A stretch of DNA of 64,000 bases, taken from the sequence record PZ476263.1; one strand, given 5' to 3'. Each line of letters starts with the position of its first letter. The first letter of the stretch is position 1. The notes beneath the pieces were generated by a model. That model was given only the letters and a program-made list of their open reading frames with translations. It was not told the origin of the DNA and searched no databases. This document shows, in pieces, positions 21,696 through 53,144 of this stretch. The DNA comes from a phage. The position numbers and the translations under genes were made by a program.

Positions 21696-22050
21696 ATGTC
21701 TGCTACATTCGCACCTGCGAGTCGCAAGCAACAAATGGTTCTCGAATCTACAGCACAGATTATGGTAATAGGTGGTGCAGCAGGATCAGGTAAATCATAC
21801 CTTTTACAGTTGATGCCTTTGCTTATTGTAAACGACCCTAAAACAGCCTGCATCATGTTTCGTCGTACTGTACCGCAGATTCGTGGACAAGGTGGCTTGT
21901 TTGACAAAGCTAAAGATATTTATAACCAGCTGCCTCCGGTAGTTAAGCCGAAGTTTAAAGAGAACGAGATGACTGCTACATTCCCTAACGGAGCAACCGT
22001 TAAGTGGCAGTCTATGCAACACGTAAGTGATAAATACGACATCCAGGGGT
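21696..22050 (+). CDS. terL: terminase large subunit, exon 1 (Walker A ATPase segment)
   Basis: IGGAAGSGKSY Walker A; frame terminates at TAA 22050-22052 inside predicted intron 1; predicted 5' splice site after U22050. Confidence 0.6.
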
Positions 22051-22960
22051 AAAAATTTCCTGCCCATCGTATCTTAATCGGTGAAACTCTGTTATAATAA
22101 GTACAGACAATACCGAGATCCATTACCTGAAATGACAGTAGGGAGATATGATGAAAAAATTTGAAATTGTTCCAAGCAAACCTGAATTTTCCGTAAGTGA
22201 AGACGGGCTGATTATGTTTACCTCTACAGGTACTATTCTTAAGCCGTATGTTGATAAGGATGGTTACCACAGGGTTAGAAATTTCTCTGCTGGAGGTAAA
22301 TCTCATTACATCGCCGTTCATCGCGCCGTTGCTGAGGTTTTTGTTAAAAACCCTAACCCAAAAGTGTTTAAGATTGTTAATCACTTGGATAATGTTAAGA
22401 GCAACAATCATAAAACCAATTTGGAATGGACAACCGAATCATTAAACCGAGTTCATGCAGTTCATGCCAACGGTACAGCATCTGTTAGAAACAATGTTAA
22501 ATTTACAGAAGGTCAAGTCAGAAAGGTGTGTGAACTTTTGAGCTTGGGCTATCGGATAGTTGATATTGTGAAACTTACAGGCGTTGATAGATTCAATGTG
22601 ATGGCAATTAGAAGCGGAAAATCTTGGGTTCAGATCTCTTGTGAGTTTGAAACTTTAAAAGTAGAAAGAAAAGATACACTGTCTGAAAAGACGATTCTTT
22701 GGATTAAAGACCAAATTAATCGCCAAAGGTCAGATGATGAAATACTTTTAATGTCGGTAAGACTTACAAAAGAAGAGCTTGAAAGAGCAAAGAAGATTAT
22801 TTCATTGATGGATTGTAACGACTAATGCTGATGAGTGTAAGCATGTAGGGCCAAGCGGTCCGAAACGATACGCCAAGGATGGAAGATATAGTCTGAACTA
22901 TATGGTGACATATAGCTGCTTAAGCAGGGTTAAGATTAGCGATCTTAATCGAACACAATG
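22051..22960 (+). mobile_element. group I intron 1 (about 910 nt) with internal HNH homing endonuclease ORF
   Basis: S element AAGATATAGTC at 22883-22893, R-like AACGACTAA at 22818-22825, P9 hairpin CTATATG-GTGA-CATATAG (GNRA loop), candidate IGS GCCC near 5' end, 3' end ...GAACACAATG. Confidence 0.6.
22148..22825 (+). CDS. intron-encoded HNH homing endonuclease
   Basis: DGYHRV...HRAVAEVF...NHLDNVKSNNHKTNLEW HNH core; lies wholly between terminase exons. Confidence 0.65.
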   Translation: MMKKFEIVPSKPEFSVSEDGLIMFTSTGTILKPYVDKDGYHRVRNFSAGGKSHYIAVHRAVAEVFVKNPNPKVFKIVNHLDNVKSNNHKTNLEWTTESLNRVHAVHANGTASVRNNVKFTEGQVRKVCELLSLGYRIVDIVKLTGVDRFNVMAIRSGKSWVQISCEFETLKVERKDTLSEKTILWIKDQINRQRSDDEILLMSVRLTKEELERAKKIISLMDCND

Positions 22961-23014
22961 TGGAATTTACATTTATAGGTGTGGACGAAGGCACTCAGTT
23001 TGAGTGGGAGCAGT
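22961..23014 (+). CDS. terL: terminase large subunit, exon 2 (54-nt micro-exon encoding Walker B-like FTFIGVDEGTQFEWEQ)
   Basis: in-frame segment between two intron cores; hydrophobic stretch + DE typical of terminase Walker B. Confidence 0.5.
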
Positions 23015-23341
23015 TAATCTAGCTGCCTCGTACAGTAATGTACGATGAGAAATTCTTGTGAATTGCTGGAAAATCCTTAGAGCTTGTAAAACTACAACAT
23101 GACCTGCAAAGGTGAGTGTGAATGTTAAAAATTTACAAGATTGGACGATCAGCCTCCAAGCCTCTTTACGAGAGGAAGGTTCAACGACTAGCCGAAAGGC
23201 GTAGATCATAAGCAAATGATGATCGAAGTGCAAGACCCCTACCTTATTGGTAGGGTGAAGATATAGTCTGATCTGCATGGTAACATGCAGCAGTGCTTGA
23301 GTGCACGGCAACGAACTTGCGATCCGTTGCGAACATAACAG
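23015..23341 (+). mobile_element. group I intron 2 (about 327 nt, ORF-less)
   Basis: IGS-like GCTGC pairing with exon GCAGU; R-like GTTCAACGACTAG 23179-23191; S AAGATATAGTC 23258-23268; P9 CTGCATG-GTAA-CATGCAG; 3' end ...GAACATAACAG. Confidence 0.55.
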
Positions 23342-24429: not shown

Positions 24430-25962
24430 ATGATTTTGAAAAATAAGAAAAGTCGTAAAACTAATGTTCGCAAAGCAACTAGCGAAGAATTAAATGTTTC
24501 TCGTCTTCGTATGAGTGAACAAGGTACTTTTGCACTGGCTAAGGTTCAGATCGAAACTGAACGAATGAAAGCCGAAGAAATTAAATGGCCTCAGCTTATC
24601 GGTACTGTTGAAGCTATGAAGCAAGATGCTACGGTAGCGACTGGCCTTGATATGCTGTATACTTTCGTAGAAAAAGCATTTAAGGATTTTAAAGTTATTC
24701 CTGGTAAATCAAAAGAATCACAGGATGCTGCCGACTTTATCACTTATTGTTTGAAGAATATGGAAGGACAAACTCTTCGCCAGTTTGCTCGTGATGCTGC
24801 AACATTTAATGAATACGGAATCTCCGTAGTAGAAAAAGTTTATACGCAGATCCTTACTGGTGAATATGCTGGCAAGTTTAAAATTAAAAATCTTGCTTTC
24901 CGACCACAAGCGTCTTTAAGTCGTAAAAATCCTCTCGTATATAGCGATGACGGTTCTAGAGTAATTGGCGTTAAACAGACCCTTACTTCTTTCAAGAATT
25001 ACACAAATAGCGTATTGGGCAATAGTTCTGGATTTATTGGTTCTCGCAACGGTGATGATGTTATCATTCCTGCAAACAAGGTTATGATCATGACCACTGG
25101 CGGATCTTCGTCTCAGGCACTAGGCGTTTCACCTCTGGTTGCTTGCTATCGACCTTGGCGTGAAAAGGTTCTGATTGAAAACTTAGAAGTTGTTGGTGCT
25201 ACAAAAGATATGGGCGGTGTTATCGAATTAAAGATACCTTCTTCCATACTTAACAAAGCTGCAATTGACCCATCAAGCTACGAAGCTGAAATGGTTCAGG
25301 GTCTAATGGCTGACGCAGCCAACGCCCACTCTGGTGAGCAATCTTTCTTTATGCTGCCTTCTGACACTAAAGATAACGCTCCTTTATACTCAATGTCTCT
25401 GAAAGGCATTGACGGTATGGGTAAACAGTACAGCACTCGTGACCTTATCAGTGATCGTAAGAAATCAATCCTTGATCGTTTGGGAGCAGGATTCCTTAAC
25501 GTGGGTAATGATGATGCTGGTTCTTATAATCTGTCTGAGTCTAAGCAAACAATCCACACTCAATTTGTACAACGTGTAAATGAAATTATTGCTGAAGCAT
25601 TAAATGAGAATTTACTCCCTCAGCTTCTGGCATTAAATGGTATTCGCCTTGAACAAAAAGAAATGCCTTTCATTAAATTCGGTCAGATTGTTGACACAGA
25701 TATGGAAGGATTCTCCAAAGCTGTACAGCGTATGGGTGCTGTAGGTTATCTGCCTAAGACTCCAGAAGTAATCAATAAGATCCTTGACGTACTTGGAATT
25801 GATTATCAGTTGGCAGAAGATATTTCTCAAGAAGACCTTATGTTGCTTCTTGGAGATAATACCAGTCGTTCAGGTGATGGCTTTGCGCCAGGTTCGACAG
25901 GAAACGGGACTGGAAAGATTAGTGCTTCAAGAGACAATTCAATTTCTAACTTAGAAAATTGA
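24430..25962 (+). CDS. portal protein (putative)
   Basis: 510 aa ORF immediately downstream of terminase; size and position typical of portal. Confidence 0.5.
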   Translation: MILKNKKSRKTNVRKATSEELNVSRLRMSEQGTFALAKVQIETERMKAEEIKWPQLIGTVEAMKQDATVATGLDMLYTFVEKAFKDFKVIPGKSKESQDAADFITYCLKNMEGQTLRQFARDAATFNEYGISVVEKVYTQILTGEYAGKFKIKNLAFRPQASLSRKNPLVYSDDGSRVIGVKQTLTSFKNYTNSVLGNSSGFIGSRNGDDVIIPANKVMIMTTGGSSSQALGVSPLVACYRPWREKVLIENLEVVGATKDMGGVIELKIPSSILNKAAIDPSSYEAEMVQGLMADAANAHSGEQSFFMLPSDTKDNAPLYSMSLKGIDGMGKQYSTRDLISDRKKSILDRLGAGFLNVGNDDAGSYNLSESKQTIHTQFVQRVNEIIAEALNENLLPQLLALNGIRLEQKEMPFIKFGQIVDTDMEGFSKAVQRMGAVGYLPKTPEVINKILDVLGIDYQLAEDISQEDLMLLLGDNTSRSGDGFAPGSTGNGTGKISASRDNSISNLEN

Positions 25963-25983: not shown

Positions 25984-26601
25984 TTGCAAAACGTATCGTT
26001 CAGTGTTAAAATAAATATCACGGGAGCAATGATGGAAAACATTACTATCTCCGACCTTCCTTCACATACCTATCTGTCTCGAATTCAAAAGAGTCGGGCT
26101 GTGAAAAAGGCCAATGAGCTACTTGAAAAGGGCTTCAATAAGGAAGCCTCTATATCAGGAGCCATTGGCTCCGTTCTTATTCAAAAATCCAATCAGCAAG
26201 AAGAAATGATTTCTTATGAAATTATTTACGAACCTGATACTCCTGACCTGCATGGTCAGTGGATGAGTAAAGAAACATTAGTTAAGGCGCAACAGGATTT
26301 CAAAAAGGCTCAAGAAATAGGGGCCGTAACTGAAAACCTTTATCACTTGGTTGATACCGAAGCATTCAAGATCGTAGATCATTGGATTCAGCCAGAATTT
26401 GATGTAACTGTCGCTGCGACAGGTGAAGTCATTAAAGCAGGATCTTGGGTAGCAAAAGTTCAATATACACCTGAAGCATGGGAATTGAAAAAGGCTGGCA
26501 TCGTCGGCGGATTATCTCTTCAATGTGGCGGGATGTTGAATGAAGAAACAAATGAGCTATCCGATCTTGATTTCAGTATCGCATTGGAAGAGGAAGAATA
26601 A
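25984..26601 (+). CDS. head maturation protein (possible prohead protease); start probably at 26029
   Basis: position between portal and scaffold; GGGAG RBS before ATGATG at 26029. Confidence 0.3.
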   Translation: MQNVSFSVKINITGAMMENITISDLPSHTYLSRIQKSRAVKKANELLEKGFNKEASISGAIGSVLIQKSNQQEEMISYEIIYEPDTPDLHGQWMSKETLVKAQQDFKKAQEIGAVTENLYHLVDTEAFKIVDHWIQPEFDVTVAATGEVIKAGSWVAKVQYTPEAWELKKAGIVGGLSLQCGGMLNEETNELSDLDFSIALEEEE

Positions 26602-27686
26602 TGATTAAGACGTTGATAGAGAAAGGACGCAAGATTAAATCTCGCGGAATTGCTCTAACTCACAAAGACCAAGGTTACAGTGCTAATAATCGTCCTGTAA
26701 GCCTTCTCACCAAATCTGATATTGACCCGAATAAATTGACGGTTGATATTATCAAAACTTTAGAGCAAGTTCAGGTAACCCTGAGCATGGAAGAATTTCT
26801 TCGTAGATTCTTCGGTCTGTGGTCAGACGATGCTGAATTACTCGCAAAGATTCTGGGTTTTAAAACTGAATTTGAAGAGTATGTAGAAAATACAGACGAT
26901 CCTGATACATACGAAGAAGCTTATATTAAGCGTCATCAAGAATATATTGAAGAAAAGCTTACCACACTTTCAATTATCAACAAAGCAAAAGAAGGTGCTG
27001 ACCTTTCACTGTTGGAACGCTACGAACTAATTAAGACTCGTAAGCAATTCGAAGAAGGTTGTGCTGAACTGAATCTTGATTTTGGTGATACATCAACCTT
27101 ACGCAAGCCAGAAATTGATAAGGTAGAGAAATCTGCTGAATCTAAACCTGCAAGCTCCGCTGGAGCTACCACAACCATTAAGGAGACTCCTGTGGAAAAA
27201 GAAGTAGACGTGACTAAGTCTAAGCAATTCATTGACCTTATGAAAGCCAATGAAGCGCTGATGGCACAAGTACAGGGTATGCAAGAGACTTTCCTTGCTG
27301 CTCAAGATATCGTTAAAGCTCAAGCTGTTGCTAAACGTGAAATTGCAATCAACAAAGCTGCAAGCTTTGCATTTGTTGCTGAAGAACAGCGTGAAGCAGT
27401 TGCTGATCTGATTGAAGACCCAGCTAAAGCTACTGTTGTTGCTGTACTGGAAAAAGCCGCCGCCTCCCTGAAAGAAAAAGATGAAGCACTGGCAGCTAAA
27501 GACGCAGAAATCGAAGAGATCAAAAAATCCTTCGCTAATGGTGAAGAAACTGGTGCTGATGGTCAACTGACTGAAGTTGCTAAAGGTGCTGAAGATGCTC
27601 AAGCTCGCTTGAATCGTATTATCGCAGACCGCGCTGCTGAAATTGCTAAAGCTGCAAGTGGCACTTCTGAATTTATTAACGTCTAA
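26601..27686 (+). CDS. scaffolding protein
   Basis: 361 aa, acidic, Ala/Glu/Lys-rich predicted helical protein (AKAQAVAKREIAINKAASFAFVAEEQREAVADLIEDPAKA). Confidence 0.55.
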   Translation: MIKTLIEKGRKIKSRGIALTHKDQGYSANNRPVSLLTKSDIDPNKLTVDIIKTLEQVQVTLSMEEFLRRFFGLWSDDAELLAKILGFKTEFEEYVENTDDPDTYEEAYIKRHQEYIEEKLTTLSIINKAKEGADLSLLERYELIKTRKQFEEGCAELNLDFGDTSTLRKPEIDKVEKSAESKPASSAGATTTIKETPVEKEVDVTKSKQFIDLMKANEALMAQVQGMQETFLAAQDIVKAQAVAKREIAINKAASFAFVAEEQREAVADLIEDPAKATVVAVLEKAAASLKEKDEALAAKDAEIEEIKKSFANGEETGADGQLTEVAKGAEDAQARLNRIIADRAAEIAKAASGTSEFINV

Positions 27687-27706: not shown

Positions 27707-28132
27707 ATGGCTAAAGCACACGTTGTAACTCTTGAAGGGAACTATTCCGATATCGTACTGGGCCGTGTTGTTGCATTTGGTGACACGGGTTGGAACTTTG
27801 AAGAAGTAGATATGGCATACACCGCTGACCTAGTGGCTGGCCTGCTGGTAGCTGCCGATGGTACTCCGGCTGCGGCTGCTGCTGATGTATACGGTGTTCT
27901 GGTTGACCGTAAAGTCCTGCCTGGTGTTACTAAGCATGATGGTGCAACCCCTATGGCTGGTGAAACCCTGCCTATGACTATCGCTGTTCGTGGTCTGACC
28001 CTGAACGCAACTAAACTGGTTTACGCTGATGGTAGCCCAATTGACGACGCTGGTAAGCTGGCTCTGTCTAAAGCTGGTAACCAAGTAACTGATCGTGTAG
28101 TAGCTACCGAATTCCTCGGCGCTATCCTGTAA
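27707..28132 (+). CDS. head decoration protein (lambda gpD-like position)
   Basis: 141 aa gene directly upstream of major capsid gene; shares its strong codon bias. Confidence 0.45.
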   Translation: MAKAHVVTLEGNYSDIVLGRVVAFGDTGWNFEEVDMAYTADLVAGLLVAADGTPAAAAADVYGVLVDRKVLPGVTKHDGATPMAGETLPMTIAVRGLTLNATKLVYADGSPIDDAGKLALSKAGNQVTDRVVATEFLGAIL

Positions 28133-28155
28133 TTATTTCGAAGGAGACATTTTAA

Positions 28156-29151: not shown

Positions 29152-29168
29152 TTTTAATAACTATCTTA

Positions 29169-29196: not shown

Positions 29197-29213
29197 TATG
29201 CCTGTACATTTTG

Positions 29214-33729: not shown

Positions 33730-33739
33730 TTTTCAATAA

Positions 33740-34419: not shown

Positions 34420-36036
<1,617 letters not shown>

Positions 36037-36074
36037 TTTAATTATAATTCACAGGGACGTGATTAGGAGATAAT

Positions 36075-38797: not shown

Positions 38798-38806
38798 GGG
38801 GGCTGA

Positions 38807-41423: not shown

Positions 41424-41426
41424 TAA

Positions 41427-42458: not shown

Positions 42459-42484
42459 GGCCGCTTAGTACCGTAGAGAGGGCT

Positions 42485-42727
42485 TTGGACTACGCCAGAA
42501 GAAATTCCAGCTTGAAATGGTATGACTATCTTTATTTCCGTGTCATGGAACGCTTTAAGGGCGTTAATGAGTTATCTATCGAAAGTGGTGACATGGAGGA
42601 TCTTCTTAAAAAGAATGAATATCTTGATATTCAGGATTATCTGGAAGGTGCACAAGAGAAAGAGAAGGAATACGAGCGGCAACGTCAAGAACAAGAAGCC
42701 CTGTTAAAACGGAGAAGAGGTAAATAA
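42485..42727 (+). CDS. tail assembly chaperone frameshift extension (E+E'/GT-like) or independent small ORF
   Basis: -1 frame relative to upstream chaperone; no ATG start (TTG); continuous with the -1 frame back to the slippery site. Confidence 0.4.
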   Translation: MDYARRNSSLKWYDYLYFRVMERFKGVNELSIESGDMEDLLKKNEYLDIQDYLEGAQEKEKEYERQRQEQEALLKRRRGK

Positions 42728-46157: not shown

Positions 46158-46159
46158 AA

Positions 46160-46528
46160 ATGATTGACTTAGATAAGAAATACGTTAGAACTTTCGATTT
46201 TGAATTGAGTGGTTACCCTGACGAAACATTCCGTGTGGTATTGGACTCTGTAACATATGAAGTGAGATTTACTTGGAATGAAAGGGATGAATCTTGGTTC
46301 TTCTCTCTTGGAGATATCGGTGTCCCACCGACAATAACAACTAAACTCACATGTTATTCCGATATCATAGGCCCTTATCGTTATTTAGATAATGTGCCTG
46401 ATGGTAACCTTTACCTCTTTCCACTGAGAAACATTGAAACTCGTGTGGGAAGGTATAATGTTGGCCCACTTGCGGGTGTTCAAATGATCTATGCCTCGCA
46501 AGAAGAAGATGTGGAGACTATATTCTAA
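46160..46528 (+). CDS. tail/baseplate protein, putative
   Basis: 122 aa, synteny. Confidence 0.3.
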   Translation: MIDLDKKYVRTFDFELSGYPDETFRVVLDSVTYEVRFTWNERDESWFFSLGDIGVPPTITTKLTCYSDIIGPYRYLDNVPDGNLYLFPLRNIETRVGRYNVGPLAGVQMIYASQEEDVETIF

Positions 46529-47484
46529 TGAGAGCATTGGAAAGGACATATACTTTAGTTATCGGAAGACCTGTTTACATTGGTGAAAAGCCCGTCAATA
46601 TCGAGAGATATGCGAGTAACACTAACCAAGGTGAGGCATACAAGATTACAGATCTTCATATGACCTTTGAGTTGAAAAAAGATAACTCGAAGGAACCGAA
46701 TAAGGGATTTGTTAGTGTATTCAACCTTTCCGATGAAGTAGTTAACTACCTGTCTATCAACCAAAGAGAATCCTTGGCGGTTCTCTTATACGCAGGCTAC
46801 AATGGGGATGAGAAATTAATATTCTCGGGAACTATTGAATGGGTTCAAGATACCTTCAAAGACGAGACACGAGAAACAAAATTCATATTTGGAGATGGAA
46901 CTTTAAATTTAACTACTGCAACAACTGCCCGTTCTTATCGTAAAGGTACACCGACAAATCAGGTATTAAATGATCTTATTTCAGACCTGAAATTACCAAA
47001 AGGTAGAGTGGTAGATTTCGGTAATCAAACTATTCAAAACTCTATGGCTTTTACAGGATCTGCGTCTCAAAATCTTGATAACCTGGCAAAGAATACCGGA
47101 TCTACTTTCTCTGTTCAAGATGGGGCTGTGTACTGGACGAAAGAAGGCTCTCGATTCGCTAATGTAATGTTTGAAATATCTGAAGACGGTGGAATGGTTG
47201 GTGTCCCAACATTAAAACAGCCTGCGGTTTCTAAAAAGAAGAAGAAAAAGGATACTAAAGAGTCCGCGAAGACAAAAGAGAAGAATGTTAAAGAGGATGT
47301 TGGTCTTACGGTAACCACATTACTTAACGGTGCAATTCTTCCTGAGTCAACTGTGTACTTAAATACAAAGTACATAAAAGGATTTTATAAGGTGATTGAG
47401 TTAACCCATCGCGGAGGTTATGAGGGCGGCGACTGGACAACTGAATTAGGATTGGCAGAAACACGAGGGGAGTTGATAAGATAA
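46528..47484 (+). CDS. baseplate hub protein (P2 gpD-like position), putative
   Basis: 318 aa; contains internal poly-Lys tract KKKKKKDTKESAKTKEK. Confidence 0.3.
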   Translation: MRALERTYTLVIGRPVYIGEKPVNIERYASNTNQGEAYKITDLHMTFELKKDNSKEPNKGFVSVFNLSDEVVNYLSINQRESLAVLLYAGYNGDEKLIFSGTIEWVQDTFKDETRETKFIFGDGTLNLTTATTARSYRKGTPTNQVLNDLISDLKLPKGRVVDFGNQTIQNSMAFTGSASQNLDNLAKNTGSTFSVQDGAVYWTKEGSRFANVMFEISEDGGMVGVPTLKQPAVSKKKKKKDTKESAKTKEKNVKEDVGLTVTTLLNGAILPESTVYLNTKYIKGFYKVIELTHRGGYEGGDWTTELGLAETRGELIR

Positions 47485-47487
47485 ATT

Positions 47488-48228
47488 ATGGCTTATGTAG
47501 ATCGCTACGATGCTGCACTTTCTGTATTCTTTTCCAGACATATGAGAAACGTGCATACAAATATCCGAGGGAGAGTTGTAGGCGTTAACTATGCAGTACC
47601 TTCCGTAGATGTTCAACCTATGGCACAAACTCAATTTGAGAATGGTACTGTGGATAAATTCCCTGTTCTTTATGATGTGCCTATAAACTTTCCTTCAGGT
47701 GCGGGTGGAAAGGCAAGATTGACTATGCCGATCAAAGTGGGGGATATGGTCGGCGTATCTTTTTCAGAAAGAAATGAATCAGATTTTAATGATGTTACCA
47801 CCCATCAATTATTCCCAGGGTGGGCAGTCACCCAAATATTTACAGACGGAAACTCTAAGGCTTCTCACCCAGACAACGTTGTGCTTGAAAATGATAAAGG
47901 ATCATTAACTTTCACGCCCGAGGGTAAAACAACATTGAAAAACGATGTTGCTACTTTTGACGTTTCTGAAACAGGTAAGCTTAACTATACAAATGGTCCC
48001 GCCAATCTTGAAATAGACGAATCGGGAAAAATGACATTCAGCAATGGGTCTGCGAACATAATAGCAAACCCTGGTGGATTGGTAACTGTAAACGGTTGTC
48101 AAATAACCCCTTCGGGGAACGTGATAACTGCATCCGGTATTGACTTAGAGCAATTCTACAGCGAATACAGAATCCATAAACACGGTGGTGTCGAAAGAGG
48201 TGGTGATATTAGTGGAGAACCAGTATAA
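47488..48228 (+). CDS. baseplate spike protein (gpV-like), putative
   Basis: 246 aa; C-terminal repetitive Asn/Gly/Thr-rich segment (ANLEIDESGKMTFSNGSANIIANPGG); first in V-W-J-I-H-G-like series. Confidence 0.35.
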   Translation: MAYVDRYDAALSVFFSRHMRNVHTNIRGRVVGVNYAVPSVDVQPMAQTQFENGTVDKFPVLYDVPINFPSGAGGKARLTMPIKVGDMVGVSFSERNESDFNDVTTHQLFPGWAVTQIFTDGNSKASHPDNVVLENDKGSLTFTPEGKTTLKNDVATFDVSETGKLNYTNGPANLEIDESGKMTFSNGSANIIANPGGLVTVNGCQITPSGNVITASGIDLEQFYSEYRIHKHGGVERGGDISGEPV

Positions 48229-48752
48229 TGGCAACAGTATTTAAAGATTTTCTTTTAAATCCGACAACTGGGGATCTTGATTTTAGTTCTCGAACCCTTG
48301 AGGTTGTCACATCTAACCAGATGAGCTTAAGACAAAGGCTTTATATCCGTTTTGGTATCTGGCAAGGAACTTGGTATTTCGATGAAGGTATTGGATTTCC
48401 TTACGGAATGTTTATCGCTAAGAAAACCTCTAAAACAGTTCTGGACAACAGGATAAAACAAGAAGTAAGACAAGAGCCAGATGTTATCGCAATAGAAGGC
48501 TTTACTTCTTCAATTGACGTGACTAGCAGAAGTTACAAATGCTTTTTTACGGTTGTTACTTCAGAAGGGGAAGAAATAAACTTTGCATTCTTAGGGGAGG
48601 ATGCTTTCGAATACCCTACCCCGCCAGAAGGTAACGTTGAATTGTGTGGTGATGTTGGTTCATTAATCGAATTTAAGAACAAGCTTTACTATCTTATCAA
48701 CTTCAGATTACCTAAATATGGTGATTCCACTTGGGTAAATAACTGGAAATAA
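48228..48752 (+). CDS. baseplate wedge protein (gpW/gp25-like position), putative
   Basis: 174 aa; ATGG overlap with spike gene. Confidence 0.3.
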   Translation: MATVFKDFLLNPTTGDLDFSSRTLEVVTSNQMSLRQRLYIRFGIWQGTWYFDEGIGFPYGMFIAKKTSKTVLDNRIKQEVRQEPDVIAIEGFTSSIDVTSRSYKCFFTVVTSEGEEINFAFLGEDAFEYPTPPEGNVELCGDVGSLIEFKNKLYYLINFRLPKYGDSTWVNNWK

Positions 48753-48757
48753 CACAA

Positions 48758-48787
48758 GGGAGCCTAGCGCTCCCTTTTCTTTTAATT
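48758..48787 (+). terminator. intrinsic terminator
   Basis: GGGAGC-ctagc-GCTCCC followed by TTTTCTTTTAATT. Confidence 0.6.
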
Positions 48788-48800
48788 CTCGGAATATTAT

Positions 48801-48809
48801 GATAAAATA
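48801..48809 (+). promoter_or_regulatory. late-type promoter element GATAAAATA
   Basis: ttATGATAAAATAcgc 33 nt upstream of ATG at 48843. Confidence 0.4.
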
Positions 48810-48842
48810 CGCTTATCGTCTAATTTTGGAGCAGGAGGAACA

Positions 48843-50327
48843 ATGGCGTCCAATTACGGTCTAACGGGTAGTGGATTTAACCTCCCGCCGATGGAAGACT
48901 TAGTTCAGGAAACGAAGAAAACCTTTAAGAATGAATTTGGTGAGGACTTCAATACTGAAAGCAACTCCGTCGCAGACAAACTAATTTCTATTTTCAACGA
49001 ACGTGAATACCAACTTTGGCTTTTGATGGGTTCTGTATATTACGCTCAGACAATGCAAGGTGCGGAAGGTATTTACCTTGATGATCTTCTATCTAAACGC
49101 GGTATCTATCGTAACGGCAAGACTCGAAGCACAGGTCAGGTACAAATGACCATTGGGTCAACTGTTCCTTACAATATGATCTATTCCGCGACGGCTTATA
49201 CCATTGACAATGATTATCGTCTTTCTAACGATGTACAGGTAGCAGGGAACATCTTTGCTCAAGTCATTAAAGGAACTGATCTTTCTGTTGGTAGTTATCG
49301 TCTACAGATCCAGAATATTAATGATCAATCCATAAAGGTCATGACTTATCAACTAACAGCCACTTCCGGTGCGCCTGTTATCGCATTCTTCTCAGCAATC
49401 AAAGAATTTATCGTCGAAAACACGATCCTTTCCAATACGGATAAGATCATCATCGACTCTGTGGAAAATGCAATCTACATTGGTTATGATACTAACAAGA
49501 ATCTTACAGGGTTGTCAAGTCGTATCGACTTCAGAACTCAACCCATTGCAGGTAACCGAACGATAACTTTAGATGTTCGTGCAACAGAGCCTGGTCCAAT
49601 ATCTCGTGATGCTTACAGTGTACGAGGTATAAGTCCTGTCCCTGCCGACTTCCTCGATCTTACAAACCTTGTGGCGTTCACGCCTGGTTCAGATGTAGAA
49701 TCTGATAACGAATATCGACTTCGTGCAATCGATGCAGTTAATACCGGAAAGGCAACAAGAACCGCGATCTTGGCTGCATTGCTGAACAAGGTTGAAGGTA
49801 TTGAAAAGGTAAGGATCTTCGCAAACAACACTGACAAGACTAATGCACTTGGTGTCCCTCCTTACTCGTTTATGCCAGTTGTTTATGGTGGTAACACCGC
49901 AGAGATTAGTCAAGTCCTTTACGACACAATCGCAGGTTCCAATAACACTTCGGGAACTACCTTCTACAACATCACGACTGAAGATGACCAGGTGGAAACT
50001 ATTTGGCATACAAAAGCTCAGGCAAGAAGATTGAGCTTACGTATCAGCTATCGTGGAAGACCTCTTTCTGTTGTTGAAGAAACAACGATATCAAATAGCT
50101 TGATTACTGCGATAAATGGAACTATGATAGCCGGAACACTGTATAACGTACAGCTCGTGGGTACTGTTATCAGTTCTACCGCATCCTCCCGCTTTACTCA
50201 AGTTTTTGTAGAGATAAAGAACGTAGAAGAACCTGAATCTTCCTACGTGGGAACGGATGTGTCTGCGGCAGTGACAGAAGTTTTTGCATTGTCGGCAGAA
50301 AATATTGAATTCCGTCAAATAGTTTAA
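48843..50327 (+). CDS. baseplate J-like protein, putative
   Basis: 494 aa, position after gpW-like gene. Confidence 0.35.
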   Translation: MASNYGLTGSGFNLPPMEDLVQETKKTFKNEFGEDFNTESNSVADKLISIFNEREYQLWLLMGSVYYAQTMQGAEGIYLDDLLSKRGIYRNGKTRSTGQVQMTIGSTVPYNMIYSATAYTIDNDYRLSNDVQVAGNIFAQVIKGTDLSVGSYRLQIQNINDQSIKVMTYQLTATSGAPVIAFFSAIKEFIVENTILSNTDKIIIDSVENAIYIGYDTNKNLTGLSSRIDFRTQPIAGNRTITLDVRATEPGPISRDAYSVRGISPVPADFLDLTNLVAFTPGSDVESDNEYRLRAIDAVNTGKATRTAILAALLNKVEGIEKVRIFANNTDKTNALGVPPYSFMPVVYGGNTAEISQVLYDTIAGSNNTSGTTFYNITTEDDQVETIWHTKAQARRLSLRISYRGRPLSVVEETTISNSLITAINGTMIAGTLYNVQLVGTVISSTASSRFTQVFVEIKNVEEPESSYVGTDVSAAVTEVFALSAENIEFRQIV

Positions 50328-50337
50328 GGAGTTAATT

Positions 50338-50979
50338 GTGGCAGAGAACGTAGAGAAAAAAGATGTTAACCACATCCATCCTCTGCCCGATTTCGTAAAA
50401 GGCGGTATAGATTACTTACCGCCCGAGATCTTTGAAAACAAAGATAACTTGCAGAAGGTCCTTGAGATCTTTCTGAAACGTCTTGAACTCATTGATCAAA
50501 AAGCTGTTGAACTTGCAGAGATGAGAACAATAATCAATGCGGAAGGTGAGACGCTTGACGAGATCGGAAGACAAAATGGGATATTCCGTAATGGACTCAA
50601 TGACCCTGAATATCGCGCGGTAATCATCATCCTAACGGGTGTTGGTTCTAAGAGCGGCACAAGGTCAGAAATAATATCCACACTGAAGCAGCTTTTCGGT
50701 GACGAAGGTGTTACTACCTATAAGGGTAAGAACTACCGAATGGATATTAACATATTTAACACATGTGTTGAAGTTGAACTTATTCTTGACCAGATCCTCG
50801 ATATGCTTCCTTTGGTTACTCACTTGAGACTTGTGGAGCATCAAGGGTATCCCTTTGGATTTGAGGGTGACCAACAAGCTTTCGGGTGGGCATCTGTCTA
50901 TGACAGTGAAAGAACTGGTGCAGGTGGATTATCAACTTTAGTTTATGTATCTGACGAAGAAGACCCTTGGAGCTTCTAA
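50338..50979 (+). CDS. baseplate/tail protein (gpI-like position), putative
   Basis: 213 aa, synteny. Confidence 0.3.
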   Translation: MAENVEKKDVNHIHPLPDFVKGGIDYLPPEIFENKDNLQKVLEIFLKRLELIDQKAVELAEMRTIINAEGETLDEIGRQNGIFRNGLNDPEYRAVIIILTGVGSKSGTRSEIISTLKQLFGDEGVTTYKGKNYRMDINIFNTCVEVELILDQILDMLPLVTHLRLVEHQGYPFGFEGDQQAFGWASVYDSERTGAGGLSTLVYVSDEEDPWSF

Positions 50980-50991
50980 TAGGAGAATTTA

Positions 50992-52626
50992 ATGGCTATA
51001 CCAACTACGCCGATTGTTGTTTTTGCGGCACAAGATGTTAACCTTCCTGGTACTGGAAGACCAAACAAATCAAAACCTATTGATGATCTGTTGGCGAAAG
51101 GTTATGACAAGGGCCAGAAACCTGCGGCGGAAGAATTTAACTATATCCTCCACCAATCTGGAGCTTGGCTTTCTTATATCATCAATGAGAAGTTCCCCGA
51201 GGTAGAAGAGGAATATCGCAGACTAATCAACGAGCTTGAAAATCGTATTAACGAACAGATCACTATTATTCGTCAAGACGTTGCTGCGGTAAGGCAAAAC
51301 GTAATTGAATTACGTCAATACTTGGATCAACAGGTGGCGAATCTTCGTCGTGAGATTACTGCGGTTGACCAACGGGTTACTCGTTTATCTCAAGACTTGG
51401 ATGCGGCTGTTGCTAACCTTACTTCACGTATAGATGCATTGGAGCCTCGTTTAGTTCCAATTGGTGCAATCCTTACATGGGCAGGACAAACCCCGCCTGC
51501 GGGTTATTTAGAGTGTAATGGTCAGGTATACAATACGAACCAAAACCCGAAACTCTATCAAGTTTTAGGAAGAAACGTAGTTCCTGATTATCGTGGTTTG
51601 TTCCTTCGTGGATGGGCGCATGGGTCTAACGCATACGATCCTGATTCTGGTCGTGCATTGGGATCTATTCAGGGCGATGCAATCCGAAACATTACGGGCG
51701 CAATGGGATATGAAAGTATCCGTACTGACCACGGTTATCGTGAAACTGGTGCACTTTATACTCAGTACAATTCCAACAGTGGTCCAGACCATGACCGTAA
51801 AAACCCTGCGGGTGATGTACGGTTTGATGCGAGCCGTGTAGTTCCTACCGCTCCTGAGAACAGACCAAAAAACGCCGCAGTTATGTATATCATAAAAACT
51901 GATCAGGCTCAGGGTACGGGAAGTCTTTCTCCTACGTCCTTGATTACTACACCTGATACGATAACTAACCGTGTTGGATTTACTCAAGGGATTAGTGCTC
52001 AAGTTCTTCCTGCAAACTTAGCTAGTCAGTATCCGGTAACTTGGACATCACAAAACGGTAATGTTGCAACCGTGGATAGTGCAGGTAACGTAAGATTGAC
52101 CGGACCTGGTGAGACGAATATTATTGCCTCTATATCTACGGGATTGTCGGCGCAGGTTAGAATTGTATCCTATACCGCACTAACAAGTATTAGTATTGGC
52201 ACTATTCCAACCATAGAAGTTAACGGGTCTGAAGTTGTACCTATTAACAGAGTACCTGCAAACTCCAATGAACCTCTGGTTTATTCAACCAGTAATGCAA
52301 ACGTGGCAGTAGTTACCCAAGGTGGTTATGTTTCAGGTGTTGCTCCAGGGACAGCTGTTATTACTGTGCGTGGCTCTATTTCTGGCGCTCAAGCTACAAG
52401 ACAGGTAACTGTAATTCCTGCGACTGTTGTTCAAACTATCGAAGATGTTCGTTTAGGTATTGAACAGCAAACCACTATGAACGGTGACAACTACACGAGT
52501 CCAGTTCGTGCTCCGGCAGGTTGTGTTATCACAGGTGTTGTTTCTGCGGGTCTTGGTCTTAACCAAGGTTATTATAAACCAATCCAGAAGCTTATGTCCG
52601 GCGTTTGGGTGACAGTTCAAGGATAA
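50992..52626 (+). CDS. tail fiber protein with coiled-coil stalk, tail-collar-like domain and Ig-like repeats
   Basis: heptad region (RINEQITIIRQDVAAVRQNV...), PIGAILTWAG...YLECNGQ...LYQVLG...PDYRGLFLRG collar-like motif, two Big_2-like segments. Confidence 0.55.
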   Translation: MAIPTTPIVVFAAQDVNLPGTGRPNKSKPIDDLLAKGYDKGQKPAAEEFNYILHQSGAWLSYIINEKFPEVEEEYRRLINELENRINEQITIIRQDVAAVRQNVIELRQYLDQQVANLRREITAVDQRVTRLSQDLDAAVANLTSRIDALEPRLVPIGAILTWAGQTPPAGYLECNGQVYNTNQNPKLYQVLGRNVVPDYRGLFLRGWAHGSNAYDPDSGRALGSIQGDAIRNITGAMGYESIRTDHGYRETGALYTQYNSNSGPDHDRKNPAGDVRFDASRVVPTAPENRPKNAAVMYIIKTDQAQGTGSLSPTSLITTPDTITNRVGFTQGISAQVLPANLASQYPVTWTSQNGNVATVDSAGNVRLTGPGETNIIASISTGLSAQVRIVSYTALTSISIGTIPTIEVNGSEVVPINRVPANSNEPLVYSTSNANVAVVTQGGYVSGVAPGTAVITVRGSISGAQATRQVTVIPATVVQTIEDVRLGIEQQTTMNGDNYTSPVRAPAGCVITGVVSAGLGLNQGYYKPIQKLMSGVWVTVQG

Positions 52627-52631
52627 TAATC

Positions 52632-53144
52632 ATGAGAATGAATAATTTTAAAGTATACTCGCCAGAGGTTAAAGCTTTTGGTGAAGGAGTTCAATATTTT
52701 CAAGATGAAAAGGGAAGGGACTTCTATGAATCTCGTGGACTATTCAAAAAGAAATATGTAGTTTTCTTTGATGAGCACAATATAGTTCGTGGATGGGCAA
52801 AAAGTGAAGAAGTTACCCGTCTTCACCCAGGTGGTTTATCCGTTGTCGACCTGAATACCTTGCCGAAAGAATTTTCTTTACAGGATGGTGTGTGGTCATT
52901 CAATGGGAAACAGGTCGTTAAAGCCGACTATGATCCGGTATTTACCACGGAAGTAAGAAAGGCAGGTATTTTGCAAGTAATTGGGTCTGTTATCGCCCCA
53001 CTTCAAGATGCTGTTGAATTAGGAGAGGCTACGGAAGAAGAGACTGAAAAATACAATCATCTCCGCAGGATGAGAGTTAAAGTCATGCGTATTCCAGATA
53101 GCACTTGCCCCGCCGATATAGACTGGTCAGAGTTTACTGTCTAA
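52632..53144 (+). CDS. tail fiber assembly protein (gpG/Tfa-like), putative
   Basis: immediately after fiber gene; ~170 aa; C-terminal DIDWSEF. Confidence 0.4.
   Translation: MRMNNFKVYSPEVKAFGEGVQYFQDEKGRDFYESRGLFKKKYVVFFDEHNIVRGWAKSEEVTRLHPGGLSVVDLNTLPKEFSLQDGVWSFNGKQVVKADYDPVFTTEVRKAGILQVIGSVIAPLQDAVELGEATEEETEKYNHLRRMRVKVMRIPDSTCPADIDWSEFTV

What the first reader, a model, noticed from the sequence alone, without database searches (positions are those of the whole stretch)
21696..53144. Mosaic architecture: lambda-like head genes joined to a P2-like contractile tail and T4-style nucleotide-metabolism genes
Gene order portal - protease? - scaffold - D-like - E-like is lambdoid. The tail order sheath - tube - frameshifted chaperone - tape measure - ... 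- V-W-J-I-H-G matches P2-type myovirus baseplates. The early arm carries dNMP kinase, endo VII, ligase and ThyX-type enzymes typical of large lytic phages. The combination with a tRNA cluster and introns suggests a lineage not well represented among model phages.
Basis: inference. Interest (0 to 1): 0.4.

Follow-up and report, generated by a model that had tools for sequence, protein, structure and literature searches.

The report
Standard rV5-family phage structural gene block
The flagged region is the normal, well-studied head-and-tail gene block of the rV5/phiTE family of large E. coli-type myoviruses, not a new mosaic; its one unusual feature is a terminase gene interrupted by two self-splicing introns that differ even between near-identical phages.

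Summary
The gene calls are largely right. The block holds TerL, portal, protease, a decoration protein and an E-type capsid protein, then sheath, tube, a frameshifted chaperone, tape measure and a V-W-J-I-H-G-like baseplate/fibre run. The early arm has ThyX, dNMP kinase, endonuclease VII and ligase, and there is a tRNA cluster.

The block is gene-for-gene collinear with subfamily Vequintavirinae (Spearman +0.9999 UPEC06, +0.998 phiTE, -1.0 rV5). Head, tail and baseplate diverge in parallel (91/88/87%, 79/66/71%, 51/44/48% aa identity), so they were inherited together. phiTE's virion is solved by cryo-EM, and window proteins match its PDB chains (capsid protein E=1e-202).

The nearest genus is Septuagintavirus (about 65% similarity over the window). 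The window fits phage Jab, published August 2026, but that identity could not be verified.

The more interesting feature is TerL. It has three exons and two group I introns 54 nt apart at the Walker-B motif. A 98-99% identical phage has a different intron set, with the homing-endonuclease gene in the other intron.

Overall: ordinary and already-known architecture, with modest interest in the intron polymorphism.

The parts
20913..21598 (+). Two overlapping small ORFs (129 and 99 aa) just upstream of TerL. They correspond by position to the Rz-like spanin pair annotated in phiTE and rV5.
   Evidence: tblastn gives 54-59% identity to A7_1/UPEC06 and 38-40% to phiTE_204/205.
21696..22050 (+). TerL exon 1 (nt 1-355 of the coding sequence)
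   Evidence: 89% DNA identity to nt 1-355 of intron-less A7_1 TerL. Terminase_6N hit. The last exon base is U.
22051..22960 (+). Intron I-355 (910 nt), a probable group I intron carrying an HNH/NUMOD4 homing-endonuclease ORF at 22148-22825 (225 aa)
   Evidence: Rfam Intron_gpI gives a partial hit over 22793-22915 (23.6 bits, local E=0.0019) that includes the GAAGAUAUAGUCU core. The HNH is phrog_59 at 1e-30. The intron ends in G, and removing it restores the ORF.
22961..23014 (+). TerL exon 2, a 54-nt mini-exon encoding LEFTFIGVDEGTQFEWEQ(L), the Walker-B segment
   Evidence: 85% DNA identity to A7_1 nt 356-410. The spliced product is verified.
23015..23341 (+). Intron I-409 (327 nt), an ORF-less group I intron
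   Evidence: Rfam RF00028 scores 78.7 bits against a gathering threshold of 50, E=2.5e-18. U precedes the 5' splice site and G ends the intron. The same intron carries a 219-aa HNH ORF in Logan contig L010.
23342..24420 (+). TerL exon 3. The three exons total 1488 nt (495 aa), 93% identical to A7_1 TerL.
   Evidence: Terminase_6N/6C hits.
24430..25962 (+). Portal protein
   Evidence: Portal_Mu PF06074 at 2e-11. 79% identical to the phiTE portal.
25984..26601 (+). Prohead protease (XkdF-type serine protease)
   Evidence: Peptidase_S78_2 at 1.9e-15.
26601..27686 (+). Probable scaffold protein (inferred, not shown)
   Evidence: phrog_2970, function unknown. No PDB homologue. A/E/K/L make up 45% of residues. 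Its position between protease and decoration gene is conserved in phiTE_211 and rV5 gp062.
27707..28132 (+). Trimeric capsid decoration protein (beta-tulip fold, assigned by orthology to phiTE DEC)
   Evidence: phrog_2680 at 6e-34. PDB 9cul_e at 2e-52 and phi92 gp123 at 5e-11. The fold assignment is from PMC11972413.
28156..29151 (+). Major capsid protein (HK97 fold, lambda-E family)
   Evidence: Phage_cap_E at 8e-39. PDB 9cul_G at 1e-202. Full-length homologues occur in 834 phage records.
29941..33729 (+). 1262-aa collagen-repeat and fibritin-C fibre, the orthologue of phiTE_215 (the 'third putative fibre')
   Evidence: Collagen at 1e-44 and Fibritin_C at 5e-8. 56% identical to phiTE_215.
34420..37658 (+). 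Two tandem paralogous collagen-like fibre genes (34420-36036, 538 aa; 36075-37658, 527 aa). A7_1, UPEC06 and LTH01 have only one.
   Evidence: The paralogues are 40% identical, with a shared N-terminus and different C-termini. 36075-37658 is 96% identical to A7_112, while 34420-36036 is only 41-56% identical to any relative. Collagen and CBM_5_12 hits.
38336..39897 (+). Neck genes: Neck1/tail completion, head completion and tail (neck) terminator
   Evidence: phrog_222. Phage_HCP and Phage_tail_terminator_9.
40008..41909 (+). Tail sheath (40008-41423) and tail tube (41427-41909)
   Evidence: phrog_205 at 4e-105. KPP10_Orf10 at 1e-8. 73-76% identical to phiTE_222/223.
41985..42727 (+). Tail assembly chaperone with a programmed -1 frameshift. 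The short product is 157 aa. The frameshift product is 248 aa, made by slipping at T-TTT-TTC (42359-42365).
   Evidence: Phage_TAC_15 at 1e-21. The -1 frame is open from 42335 to 42727, and the heptamer is conserved in A7_1, UPEC06, phiTE and rV5.
42781..45213 (+). Tape measure protein
   Evidence: TMP_3 at 5e-14.
45282..48228 (+). Baseplate core: tube initiator (45282-46157), spacer (46160-46528), hub (46528-47484) and puncture spike with GpV apex motif (47488-48228)
   Evidence: PDB 9cuy_K at 6e-108 and 9mjn_df at 2e-60. phrog_196 at 8e-74. Apex motif.
48228..50979 (+). Sheath initiator (W/gp25-like, 48228-48752), J-family wedge protein (48843-50327) and wedge-1 protein (50338-50979)
   Evidence: PDB 9mjn_d6 at 4e-84. 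Baseplate_J at 6e-7. PDB 9mjn_dh 'Wedge 1' at 2e-104.
50992..53144 (+). Short tail fibre (Collar plus Ig-like domains) and its assembly chaperone
   Evidence: Collar at 4e-13, Big_2 at 1e-12 and Caudo_TAP at 4e-12. Orthologues of phiTE_236/237.
54270..58774 (+). Long tail fibre (54270-57503) and a 410-aa virion protein (57542-58774). These end the structural block, beyond the flagged end coordinate.
   Evidence: phrog_4549 at 2e-249 and phrog_15692 at 1e-99. Both PHROGs are among the W70 virion proteins identified by mass spectrometry (PMC11370258).
19065..20824 (+). tRNA cluster: Met, Tyr, Gly, Gln, Pro
   Evidence: ARAGORN and Rfam.
308..14430 (-). Early/nucleotide-metabolism arm: ThyX, NT5C-like deoxyribonucleotidase, dNMP kinase, RNaseH-like exonuclease, endonuclease VII, exonuclease, free-standing HNH and ATP-dependent DNA ligase
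   Evidence: Pfam and PHROGs. Same gene order in A7_1, UPEC06 and rV5.

Best explanation
Window 21696-58774 is the conserved morphogenesis operon of a lytic myovirus of about 140 kb in subfamily Vequintavirinae (rV5-like phages). Its nearest genus is Septuagintavirus, and the phage is probably Escherichia phage Jab or a conspecific.

The operon works as in its structurally solved relative phiTE. TerL and the portal package DNA into a T=13 HK97-fold capsid. That capsid is built with an XkdF-type protease and a probable scaffold, and is cemented by beta-tulip decoration trimers. A neck joins the head to a contractile tail, whose length is set by the tape measure protein with help from a -1 frameshifted chaperone. 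The tail ends in a simple Pam3/E217/Mu-type baseplate carrying short, long and collagen-like fibres.

The resemblance of individual modules to lambda, P2 and T4 reflects ancient families shared across tailed phages. It does not reflect a recent recombination. The whole arrangement, including the nucleotide-metabolism arm and the tRNA cluster, is inherited vertically within the subfamily.

The variable parts are the fibres and TerL. TerL must be spliced from three exons, because two group I introns sit 54 nt apart in the Walker-B region.
For: **Shown**
- DNA collinearity with A7_1, A5-4, W70, A73, LTH01 and UPEC06 at 79-87% identity, and with phiTE and CR3 at 72-76%.
- Gene order: Spearman +0.9999 for UPEC06, +0.998 for phiTE (38 of 38 genes hit) and -1.0 for rV5 (29 of 38).
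- Parallel divergence of head, tail and baseplate: 91/88/87%, 79/66/71% and 51/44/48%.
- Window proteins match phiTE cryo-EM chains: MCP 1e-202, DEC 2e-52, tube initiator 6e-108, spacer 2e-60, sheath initiator 4e-84, wedge-1 2e-104. phi92 homologues exist for each of these.
- The same E-type MCP is full length in 834 phage records, spanning rV5-, phi92-, ICP1-, PAK_P1- and FelixO1-like myoviruses.
- The early-arm enzymes lie in the same order in A7_1, UPEC06 and rV5.
- TerL splices in silico to 495 aa, 93% identical to intron-less A7_1 TerL.
- The slippery heptamer is conserved across the subfamily.

**From the literature**
- rV5 genome and TerL introns: PMC3606486.
- phiTE virion atlas: PMC11972413.
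- Septuagintavirus: PMC11370258.
- Jab: PMC13538427. It reports the same five tRNAs in the same order, TerL as ORFs 110 and 113, and MCP as ORF 118, all of which match the window's gene count.

**Inferred**
- Virion mechanics are transferred from phiTE by orthology at 55-93% aa identity.
Against: - No record in the August 2025 phage collection covers 80% or more of the block. Window-limited similarity to the nearest phage is only about 65% (73% for the block). This is therefore not a member of a long-established genus.
- Identity with Jab could not be verified. PZ476263 is not in the searchable collections and no supplement text is held.
- The fibre genes at 29-38 kb and 51-59 kb are much more divergent (41-77%), and one fibre gene is extra. 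Limited modular exchange in the fibres is therefore real.
- The scaffold assignment, RNA splicing and the frameshift have not been tested experimentally.
Confidence: 0.93

Rival explanations
1. One reading: this genome is a recent or lineage-specific mosaic, in which a lambdoid head module, a P2-type tail module and T4-type early genes were joined by recombination. On this view it marks a novel lineage.
For: - Individual families do recall those model phages: Phage_cap_E, the GpV Apex motif, Baseplate_J, Caudo_TAP, Endonuclease_7 and a dNMP kinase PHROG.
- No collection record covers the block at 80% or more.
Against: - Complete collinearity with rV5, phiTE and Septuagintavirus.
- Modules diverge in parallel.
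- phi92 homologues of both head and baseplate proteins show that the combination is old.
- TerL, portal and protease are not lambda-type, and sheath and tube hit no P2 Pfam family.
- The tail gene order is Mu/Pam3-like, not P2-like (sequence order plus my knowledge of P2).
Confidence: 0.03
2. Ancient modular chimerism. The common ancestor of the rV5, phi92, FelixO1, PAK_P1 and ICP1 supergroup assembled its head, tail and replication modules from different sources. The 'mosaic' would then be real, but hundreds of millions of phage generations old and shared by hundreds of phages. This is compatible with the best explanation.
For: - The module families have different nearest model-phage relatives: T4-type TerL, Mu-type portal, XkdF protease, lambda-E MCP and a Pam3/Mu-type baseplate.
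- The MCP family spans many genera.
Against: It cannot be tested from one window. It is true of most tailed phages, so it says nothing specific about this locus.
Confidence: 0.3
3. The block is a prophage or a tailocin-like element in a bacterial chromosome, not part of a lytic phage genome.
For: The baseplate genes are P2/Mu-like, as in many prophages.
Against: - The entire 64 kb matches lytic phage genomes of 137-152 kb, with no bacterial flanks.
- The window carries a tRNA cluster, ThyX, ligase and other features of virulent phages.
- Jab and Septuagintavirus lack lysogeny genes according to their papers.
Confidence: 0.01

Closest known systems
Escherichia phage Jab (GenBank PZ476263; PMC13538427, Aug 2026), a putative new genus next to Septuagintavirus
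   Same: - Five tRNAs, Met-Tyr-Gly-Gln-Pro, in the same order.
- TerL annotated as two ORFs (110 and 113), with MCP at ORF 118. This is the window's exact gene spacing.
- About 40% GC.
- The same nearest relatives (A7_1, A5-4, LTH01, UPEC06).
- MCP and TerL more than 90% similar to Septuagintavirus.
   Different: Identity is not verifiable here. The paper does not mention introns or homing endonucleases, so the TerL twin-intron structure appears to be unreported.
Genus Septuagintavirus (phages W70, A73, A7_1, A5-4; PMC11370258), plus the unclassified UPEC06 and LTH01
   Same: Complete collinearity over the 64 kb. Mean aa identity is 87-91% for head, tail and baseplate. tRNA content and early-arm gene order are the same.
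   Different: - Only about 65% nucleotide similarity over the window.
- Their TerL is intron-less.
- They have one collagen-like fibre gene where the window has two.
- Several early-arm genes are replaced or highly divergent (32-46% identity).
Pectobacterium phage phiTE (Certrevirus), with a full cryo-EM virion atlas (PMC11972413; PDB 9cul, 9cuy, 9mjn)
   Same: All 38 genes of the block have phiTE orthologues in the same order. Capsid, decoration and baseplate proteins match its solved chains. Its TerL is also split by a group I intron with an HNH.
   Different: - 44-79% aa identity.
- phiTE has a single TerL intron at about nt 381.
- phiTE has the 164-aa 'Pagoda' protein pTE217 where the window has collagen-like fibres.
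- Different host and a flagellar receptor.
Escherichia phage rV5 (Vequintavirus; PMC3606486)
   Same: The same gene order in mirror image, from ThyX to the distal fibres. TerL lies in three segments with one HNH-bearing intron. The TAC slippery heptamer is conserved.
   Different: - 30-63% aa identity.
- Introns at other positions (about nt 387 and after about aa 227).
- A much larger fibre set.
Lambda head module, P2/Mu tail module and T4 early enzymes
   Same: - Head gene order follows lambda: portal, protease, scaffold, decoration, MCP. The MCP is E-family and the decoration protein has the beta-tulip fold.
- V/W/J-type baseplate proteins, a fibre with its Tfa-type chaperone, and a TAC frameshift.
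- Endonuclease VII, dNMP kinase and ATP-dependent ligase.
   Different: - TerL is T4-type, the portal Mu-type and the protease XkdF-type.
- No Pfam hit to P2 sheath, tube or gpI.
- Baseplate genes follow the tape measure as in Mu, not P2 (my knowledge).
- The thymidylate synthase is ThyX, not T4's ThyA (my knowledge).
Mobile group I introns with HNH homing endonucleases in phage genes (T4 td/nrdB/sunY; LL-H and rV5 terminase introns; Bastillevirinae introns, PMC11878797)
   Same: A self-splicing intron with or without an HNH ORF, inserted in a highly conserved catalytic motif. Presence is sporadic among close relatives.
   Different: Two introns lie 54 nt apart. At least four distinct insertion sites fall within about 55 nt across the subfamily. 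Conspecific phages carry the HEG in different introns.

Membership tests
Subfamily Vequintavirinae (rV5-like myoviruses) | Shared, collinear set of core structural genes with rV5, phiTE and Septuagintavirus | tested here: met
   38/38 (phiTE), 37/38 (A7_1) and 29/38 (rV5) block genes have orthologues. The absolute Spearman value is 0.998 or higher.
Subfamily Vequintavirinae (rV5-like myoviruses) | Signature proteins (MCP, TerL, portal, sheath) closest to members of the subfamily | tested here: met
   MCP is 97% identical to UPEC06, 89% to phiTE and CR9, and 51% to rV5. All top DNA hits are Vequintavirinae.
Subfamily Vequintavirinae (rV5-like myoviruses) | Genome of about 136-152 kb, lytic myovirus morphology | not testable with these tools
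   Only a 64-kb window is available. All matching records are 137-155 kb.
Genus Septuagintavirus | At least 70% intergenomic nucleotide similarity to members (ICTV genus criterion) | tested here: inconclusive
   A VIRIDIC-like estimate gives 65% for the window and 73% for the structural block against A7_1. This covers a partial genome in one direction only. The Jab paper reports 50-53% for a phage that fits this window.
Lambda-like head module | Major capsid protein of the lambda gpE family | tested here: met
   PF03864 Phage_cap_E at 8e-39, full length.
Lambda-like head module | gpD-type decoration protein | tested here: inconclusive
   No Pfam hit at E<0.01. The phiTE orthologue (PDB 9cul_e, 2e-52) has a beta-tulip fold like gpD but with a different topology and a C-terminal extension.
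Lambda-like head module | Lambda-type portal (gpB), protease (gpC) and terminase (gpA) | tested here: not met
   The best families are Portal_Mu, Peptidase_S78_2 (XkdF) and Terminase_6N/6C (T4-type).
P2-like contractile tail | gpV-type spike, gpW/gp25-type protein, gpJ-type wedge protein, and fibre with a gpG/Tfa-type chaperone in that order | tested here: met
   GpV Apex motif, Baseplate_J, Collar and Caudo_TAP. phrog_120 and the PDB 'sheath initiator'.
P2-like contractile tail | P2 FI/FII-family sheath and tube, gpI-family wedge protein | tested here: not met
   The sheath has no Pfam hit. The tube hits KPP10_Orf10 only. The I-position protein hits only DUF2612, below its cutoff.
P2-like contractile tail | P2 gene order, with baseplate and fibre genes upstream of sheath-tube-TMP | tested here: not met
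   Here the baseplate and fibre genes (45.3-53.1 kb) follow sheath-tube-TAC-TMP (40.0-45.2 kb). The P2 and Mu orders are from my knowledge.
P2-like contractile tail | Programmed -1 frameshift in the tail assembly chaperone | tested here: met
   Met at the sequence level only. T-TTT-TTC lies at 42359-42365 with a 124-nt overlap of the -1 ORF, conserved in four relatives.
T4-style nucleotide metabolism | Endonuclease VII, dNMP kinase and ATP-dependent DNA ligase homologues | tested here: met
   PF02945 at 7e-7 and PF01068 at 1e-11. phrog_139 at 1e-35.
T4-style nucleotide metabolism | ThyA-type thymidylate synthase (T4 td) | tested here: not met
   The enzyme is ThyX (PF02511 at 8e-10). That T4 uses ThyA is from my knowledge.
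Group I intron | Match to Rfam RF00028 at or above the gathering score | tested here: met
   I-409 scores 78.7 bits against a threshold of 50. I-355 gives only a partial 3'-core hit of 23.6 bits, so I-355 on its own is inconclusive.
Group I intron | U before the 5' splice site, G as the last intron base, and exon ligation that restores the ORF | tested here: met
   Both introns meet this. The spliced CDS is 1488 nt with no stops and is 93% identical to intron-less A7_1 TerL.
Group I intron | Self-splicing of the RNA | not testable with these tools
   This needs RT-PCR or in vitro splicing.

The most novel reading that the evidence does not exclude
The TerL Walker-B region of Vequintavirinae is a hot spot for mobile group I introns, and turnover there is still active.

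At least four insertion sites lie within about 55 nt:
- nt 355 and nt 409 in the window;
- about nt 381 in phiTE and in the Logan relative;
- about nt 387 in rV5.

Two phages that are 98-99% identical elsewhere carry different intron pairs. Each of two introns exists both with and without a homing-endonuclease gene. I-409 is ORF-less here and carries an HNH in the relative. I-381 is ORF-less in the relative and carries an HNH in phiTE.

This would be a natural snapshot of the homing-endonuclease gain-and-loss cycle. It may also be a case of intron- or HEG-mediated competition between co-infecting relatives, acting on an essential packaging gene.
Probability: 0.55. Interest if true: 0.4.

Novelty: already known. 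Interest (0 to 1): 0.15.

Why it matters
- **Annotation and triage.** This block should be filed as a Vequintavirinae morphogenesis operon. Functions can be transferred protein by protein from the phiTE cryo-EM atlas. It is not a new mosaic lineage.
- **Corrections for annotators.**
  - TerL in this phage is one gene of three exons, not two terminase ORFs plus an HNH.
  - The chaperone has a -1 frameshift product.
  - The gene labelled "DNA methyltransferase" in the phiTE, rV5 and CR3 RefSeq records is an XkdF-type prohead protease.
- **Possible wider interest.** The TerL intron polymorphism between near-identical phages could serve as a small model for homing-endonuclease dynamics, and for intron-mediated interference between competing phages.

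Tried and rejected
1. **Shared anchor between the collagen-like fibres and pTE217.** I asked whether the fibres at 34420-37658 share an N-terminal capsid anchor with phiTE's "Pagoda" protein pTE217, which occupies the same position and looks similar by eye. An HMM of the five N-termini, scanned against all ORFs of the phiTE and rV5 loci, did not recover pTE217. Rejected.
2. **Horizontal transfer from T4-like phages.** The 976 phage records matching the early arm, T4-like phages among them, suggested this. The matches checked, in 17.9-21.0 kb, are short and tRNA-sized. The rest of the arm was not re-examined.
3. **The GC rise to 0.48 at 30-38 kb as a sign of foreign DNA.** The Gly/Pro-rich collagen repeats (25-37% Gly+Pro) explain it, and the MCP gene is similarly GC-rich.
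4. **The low Spearman value of 0.69 for A7_1.** This is an artefact. The record's origin falls between the spanins and TerL.
5. **Exact 50-mer across the exon 2/intron 2 junction in IMG/VR.** No match.
6. **A distant DNA search with both introns.** It found only the generic group I core in unrelated phages, with at most 18% coverage.
7. **Confirming identity with Jab through the paper's supplement.** No supplement text is held.
8. **Exact-sequence look-up of six proteins.** Only the portal and sheath are in the collection, both from Logan assemblies. This led to the conspecific contig.
9. **A portal-anchored scan of IMG/VR.** It returned only seven Certrevirus-like loci, too few for a broad intron survey.
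10. **The phiTE early arm.** It was not fetched, so the "0/25" figure is not evidence that those genes are absent.

Full report
**Layout**

The window has three parts:
- a minus-strand arm at 1-17.4 kb;
- an ORF-poor stretch holding five tRNAs (Met, Tyr, Gly, Gln, Pro) at 19065-20824;
- a long plus-strand block at 20.9-58.8 kb, followed by minus-strand genes again.

The flagged interval 21696-53144 starts at the terminase start codon. It ends at the stop of a tail-fibre assembly gene. The structural block itself runs on to 58774.

**Checking the observation**

*Head genes*
- TerL is T4-type (Terminase_6N/6C).
- The portal matches Portal_Mu.
- The protease is XkdF-type (Peptidase_S78_2).
- A 361-aa protein of unknown PHROG follows. 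It is A/E/K/L-rich and has no PDB homologue, so "scaffold" rests on position and composition only.
- The decoration protein is phrog_2680.
- The capsid protein gives a full-length Phage_cap_E match at 8e-39.

*Tail genes*
- Sheath (phrog_205, 4e-105) and tube.
- TAC (Phage_TAC_15) and tape measure.
- Dit-like tube initiator, Pam3-gp18-like spacer and hub.
- Spike with the GpV Apex motif.
- gp25/W-like protein, Baseplate_J protein and a 213-aa wedge protein.
- A fibre with Collar and Ig-like domains, and a Caudo_TAP chaperone.

*Frameshift.* The TAC frame contains T-TTT-TTC at 42359-42365. The -1 frame is open from 42335 to 42727, which gives a 248-aa product. The heptamer is conserved in A7_1, UPEC06, phiTE and rV5.

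*Early arm.* It encodes ThyX, an NT5C-like nucleotidase, a dNMP kinase (phrog_139, 1e-35), endonuclease VII, exonucleases and an ATP-dependent ligase.

The observation therefore stands. The labels "lambda-like" and "P2-like" hold only for some proteins:
- TerL, portal and protease are not lambda-type.
- Sheath, tube and the I-position protein hit no P2 Pfam family.
- The baseplate genes follow the tape measure as in Mu or Pam3. In P2 they precede the sheath (my knowledge of P2 and Mu).
- ThyX is not T4's ThyA (my knowledge).

**Testing the interpretation**

It is.

*DNA similarity.* Megablast matches the whole window at 79-87% identity to E. coli phages A7_1, A5-4, A73, W70, LTH01 and UPEC06, all classified in Vequintavirinae. 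It matches phiTE, CR3, CR9 and related phages at 72-76%.

*Gene order.*

| Comparator | Block genes with a hit | Spearman |
|---|---|---|
| UPEC06 | 31/38 (fetched locus ends early) | +0.9999 |
| phiTE | 38/38 | +0.998 |
| rV5 | 29/38 | -1.0 (mirror orientation) |
| A7_1 | 37/38 | 0.69 (artefact) |

The A7_1 value is low only because that record's origin falls inside the block.

*The early arm and tRNA cluster.* They sit in the same relative position in A7_1, UPEC06 and rV5.

*Module divergence, mean aa identity.*

| Comparator | Head | Tail | Baseplate |
|---|---|---|---|
| A7_1 | 91% | 88% | 87% |
| phiTE | 79% | 66% | 71% |
| rV5 | 51% | 44% | 48% |

Parallel divergence is what co-inherited modules show. 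A recent join would not give this pattern.

*Depth of the combination.* The E-type capsid protein is full length in 834 phage records. Head and baseplate proteins both have phi92 homologues in the PDB. The head-tail combination is therefore old and widespread.

**How well the group is known**

- rV5's genome and proteome were published in 2013, including "introns in terminase" (PMC3606486).
- phiTE's complete virion was solved by cryo-EM in 2025 (PMC11972413).
- Window proteins match the phiTE chains directly: MCP 1e-202, decoration protein 2e-52, tube initiator 6e-108, spacer 2e-60, sheath initiator 4e-84 and wedge-1 2e-104.
- That paper shows a T=13 HK97-fold capsid and a beta-tulip decoration trimer, the fold family of lambda gpD. 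It describes a baseplate following the modular plan of Pam3, E217, Milano and XM1.
- The nearest relatives were named genus Septuagintavirus in 2024, with virion mass spectrometry (PMC11370258).

**Which phage this is**

- No record in the August 2025 collection covers 80% or more of the block.
- My VIRIDIC-style estimate against A7_1 is 65% for the window and 73% for the block.
- A paper of 20 August 2026 describes Escherichia phage Jab: 142.1 kb, 40.09% GC, and VIRIDIC 50-53% to Septuagintavirus (PMC13538427).
- Jab has five tRNAs listed as Met, Tyr, Gly, Gln, Pro. Its TerL is ORFs 110 and 113, its MCP is ORF 118, and ORFs 140 and 146 are predicted depolymerases.
- All of this fits the window's gene count exactly. 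By that count, ORF 140 is the short tail fibre and ORF 146 the 410-aa protein.
- I could not verify identity, because PZ476263 is not searchable here and no supplement is held.
- Either way, the phage is a member of a known subfamily.

**The terminase introns**

This is the part of the flagged block that is not routine.

*Exon and intron structure.* Alignment to intron-less A7_1 TerL gives three exons: 21696-22050, 22961-23014 and 23342-24420. They total exactly 1488 nt. They encode 495 aa with no stops, 93% identical to A7_1 TerL. A U precedes each 5' splice site and a G ends each intron.

*Intron I-409 (23015-23341, 327 nt).* It is ORF-less and matches Rfam group I at 78.7 bits against a gathering threshold of 50.

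*Intron I-355 (22051-22960, 910 nt).* It contains an HNH/NUMOD4 ORF (phrog_59, 1e-30). It carries the group I 3' core GAAGAUAUAGUCU plus P9, but only as a partial 23.6-bit hit.

*The mini-exon.* The 54-nt exon between the introns encodes the Walker-B segment FIGVDEGTQFEWEQ.

*Distribution among relatives.*
- A7_1, UPEC06, LTH01, CR3 and four IMG/VR Certrevirus-like contigs have no TerL intron.
- phiTE has one at about nt 381.
- rV5 has one at about nt 387 and another further downstream.

*A conspecific with a different configuration.* Logan contigs from SRR17836600 and SRR17836599 encode an identical portal. They are 98-99% identical to the window over 16.9-36 kb. Their TerL carries an ORF-less intron at nt 381. 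It also carries the same I-409 intron (97-99% identical in the shared parts), which there holds a different 219-aa HNH.

*Relationships among the elements.*
- The Logan I-381 intron is homologous to phiTE's HNH-bearing I-381 (76-82% identity).
- The two HNH proteins of the conspecific phages are only 32% identical.
- Each of two introns therefore exists both with and without a homing-endonuclease gene.
- The intron complement differs within one species.

*Mechanistic reading (inference).*
- These are mobile group I introns targeting an essential, conserved catalytic motif.
- HEG-less introns lying 28-54 nt from an HEG-bearing one could spread by co-conversion.
- The polymorphism reflects ongoing HEG gain and loss.
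- The general phenomenon is known from T4, rV5, LL-H and Bastillevirinae.
- These sites and this configuration appear to be unreported, and the Jab paper does not mention introns.

**Other differences from the nearest relatives**

- The window and its Logan conspecific have two tandem collagen-like fibre genes, at 34420-36036 and 36075-37658. They are 40% identical, with a shared N-terminus and different C-termini. A7_1, UPEC06 and LTH01 have only one such gene.
- Fibre genes are generally the most divergent, at 41-77% identity. This matches the Septuagintavirus paper's conclusion that fibres are the variable part of an otherwise conserved virion.
- The apparent anchor similarity to phiTE's Pagoda protein did not survive an HMM test.

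**Verdict**

The sequence features are real and mostly correctly named. The architecture is the ordinary, vertically inherited layout of Vequintavirinae, which is well described and structurally solved. Interest in the finding as stated is low. The TerL intron polymorphism is a modest finding in its own right.

Noticed in passing
window 21696-24420; L010 4631-7325; L011: TerL has two group I introns 54 nt apart at the Walker-B motif. A 98-99% identical phage (Logan SRR17836600 and SRR17836599) has a different pair: an intron at nt 381 instead of nt 355, and the nt-409 intron carrying a different HNH gene instead of being ORF-less. The nearest named relatives have no introns.
   Followed up: yes
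window 34420-36036 and 36075-37658: Tandem paralogous collagen-like fibre genes (40% identical, shared N-terminus, different C-terminal domains, one with a weak CBM_5_12 hit). A7_1, UPEC06 and LTH01 have a single gene here, and phiTE has the unrelated 'Pagoda' capsid protein pTE217 at this position. Where these fibres sit on the virion is unknown.
   Followed up: partly
window 18801-18941 (+): A non-coding segment matching T4-like coliphages (81-98% identity). In phage PE37 the match lies in an unannotated gap downstream of rIII. It hits no Rfam family but folds far better than shuffled sequence (z = -3.8, 0 of 200 shuffles). It may be a small structured RNA shared between unrelated coliphage families.
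   Followed up: partly
window 18967-19045 (+): A sixth tRNA-like element, above Rfam's tRNA gathering score (35.8 bits against 29) but not called by ARAGORN. It may be a degenerate tRNA.
   Followed up: no
window 42359-42365 and 42335-42727: The -1 slippery heptamer T-TTT-TTC in the tail assembly chaperone is conserved from this phage out to rV5. The relatives annotate the downstream piece as a separate small hypothetical protein, so the frameshift product seems to be unannotated across the subfamily.
   Followed up: yes
window 25984-26601; phiTE_210; rV5 gp063: The XkdF-type prohead protease (Peptidase_S78_2, 1.9e-15) is labelled 'DNA methyltransferase' in the RefSeq records of phiTE, rV5 and CR3/CR9. 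This is probably a propagated mis-annotation.
   Followed up: partly
window 3128-4174, 4910-5572, 10703-11062 and 12473-12952 (minus strand): Patchy divergence in the early arm. The RNaseH-like exonuclease gene is only 37% identical to A7_1, while its neighbours are 61-98% identical. ORF 10703-11062 has no homologue in any fetched relative. This suggests local gene replacement.
   Followed up: no
window 53187-54257: Three small conserved ORFs (110, 152 and 86 aa) lie between the short-fibre chaperone and the long tail fibre. phiTE annotates one (phiTE_240) as a membrane protein; the notes for phiTE_238 and phiTE_239 call their PVP-SE1 homologues hypothetical membrane proteins. Two of the three are conserved as far as rV5. 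Their function in a fibre operon is unexplained.
   Followed up: no
window 28000-38000: GC rises to 0.48-0.51 against about 0.40 elsewhere. The Gly/Pro-rich collagen repeat genes (25-37% Gly+Pro) and a GC-rich MCP gene explain this. It is not evidence of foreign origin.
   Followed up: yes
window 50992-52626 and 57542-58774: If the window is phage Jab, the 'depolymerases' predicted in its paper (ORF 140 and ORF 146) correspond to the Collar/Ig-domain short tail fibre and a 410-aa virion protein (phrog_15692). No Pfam family was found for the 410-aa protein, and the fibre hit only Collar and Ig-like (Big_2) domains plus two sub-threshold matches, none of them enzymatic.
   Followed up: no
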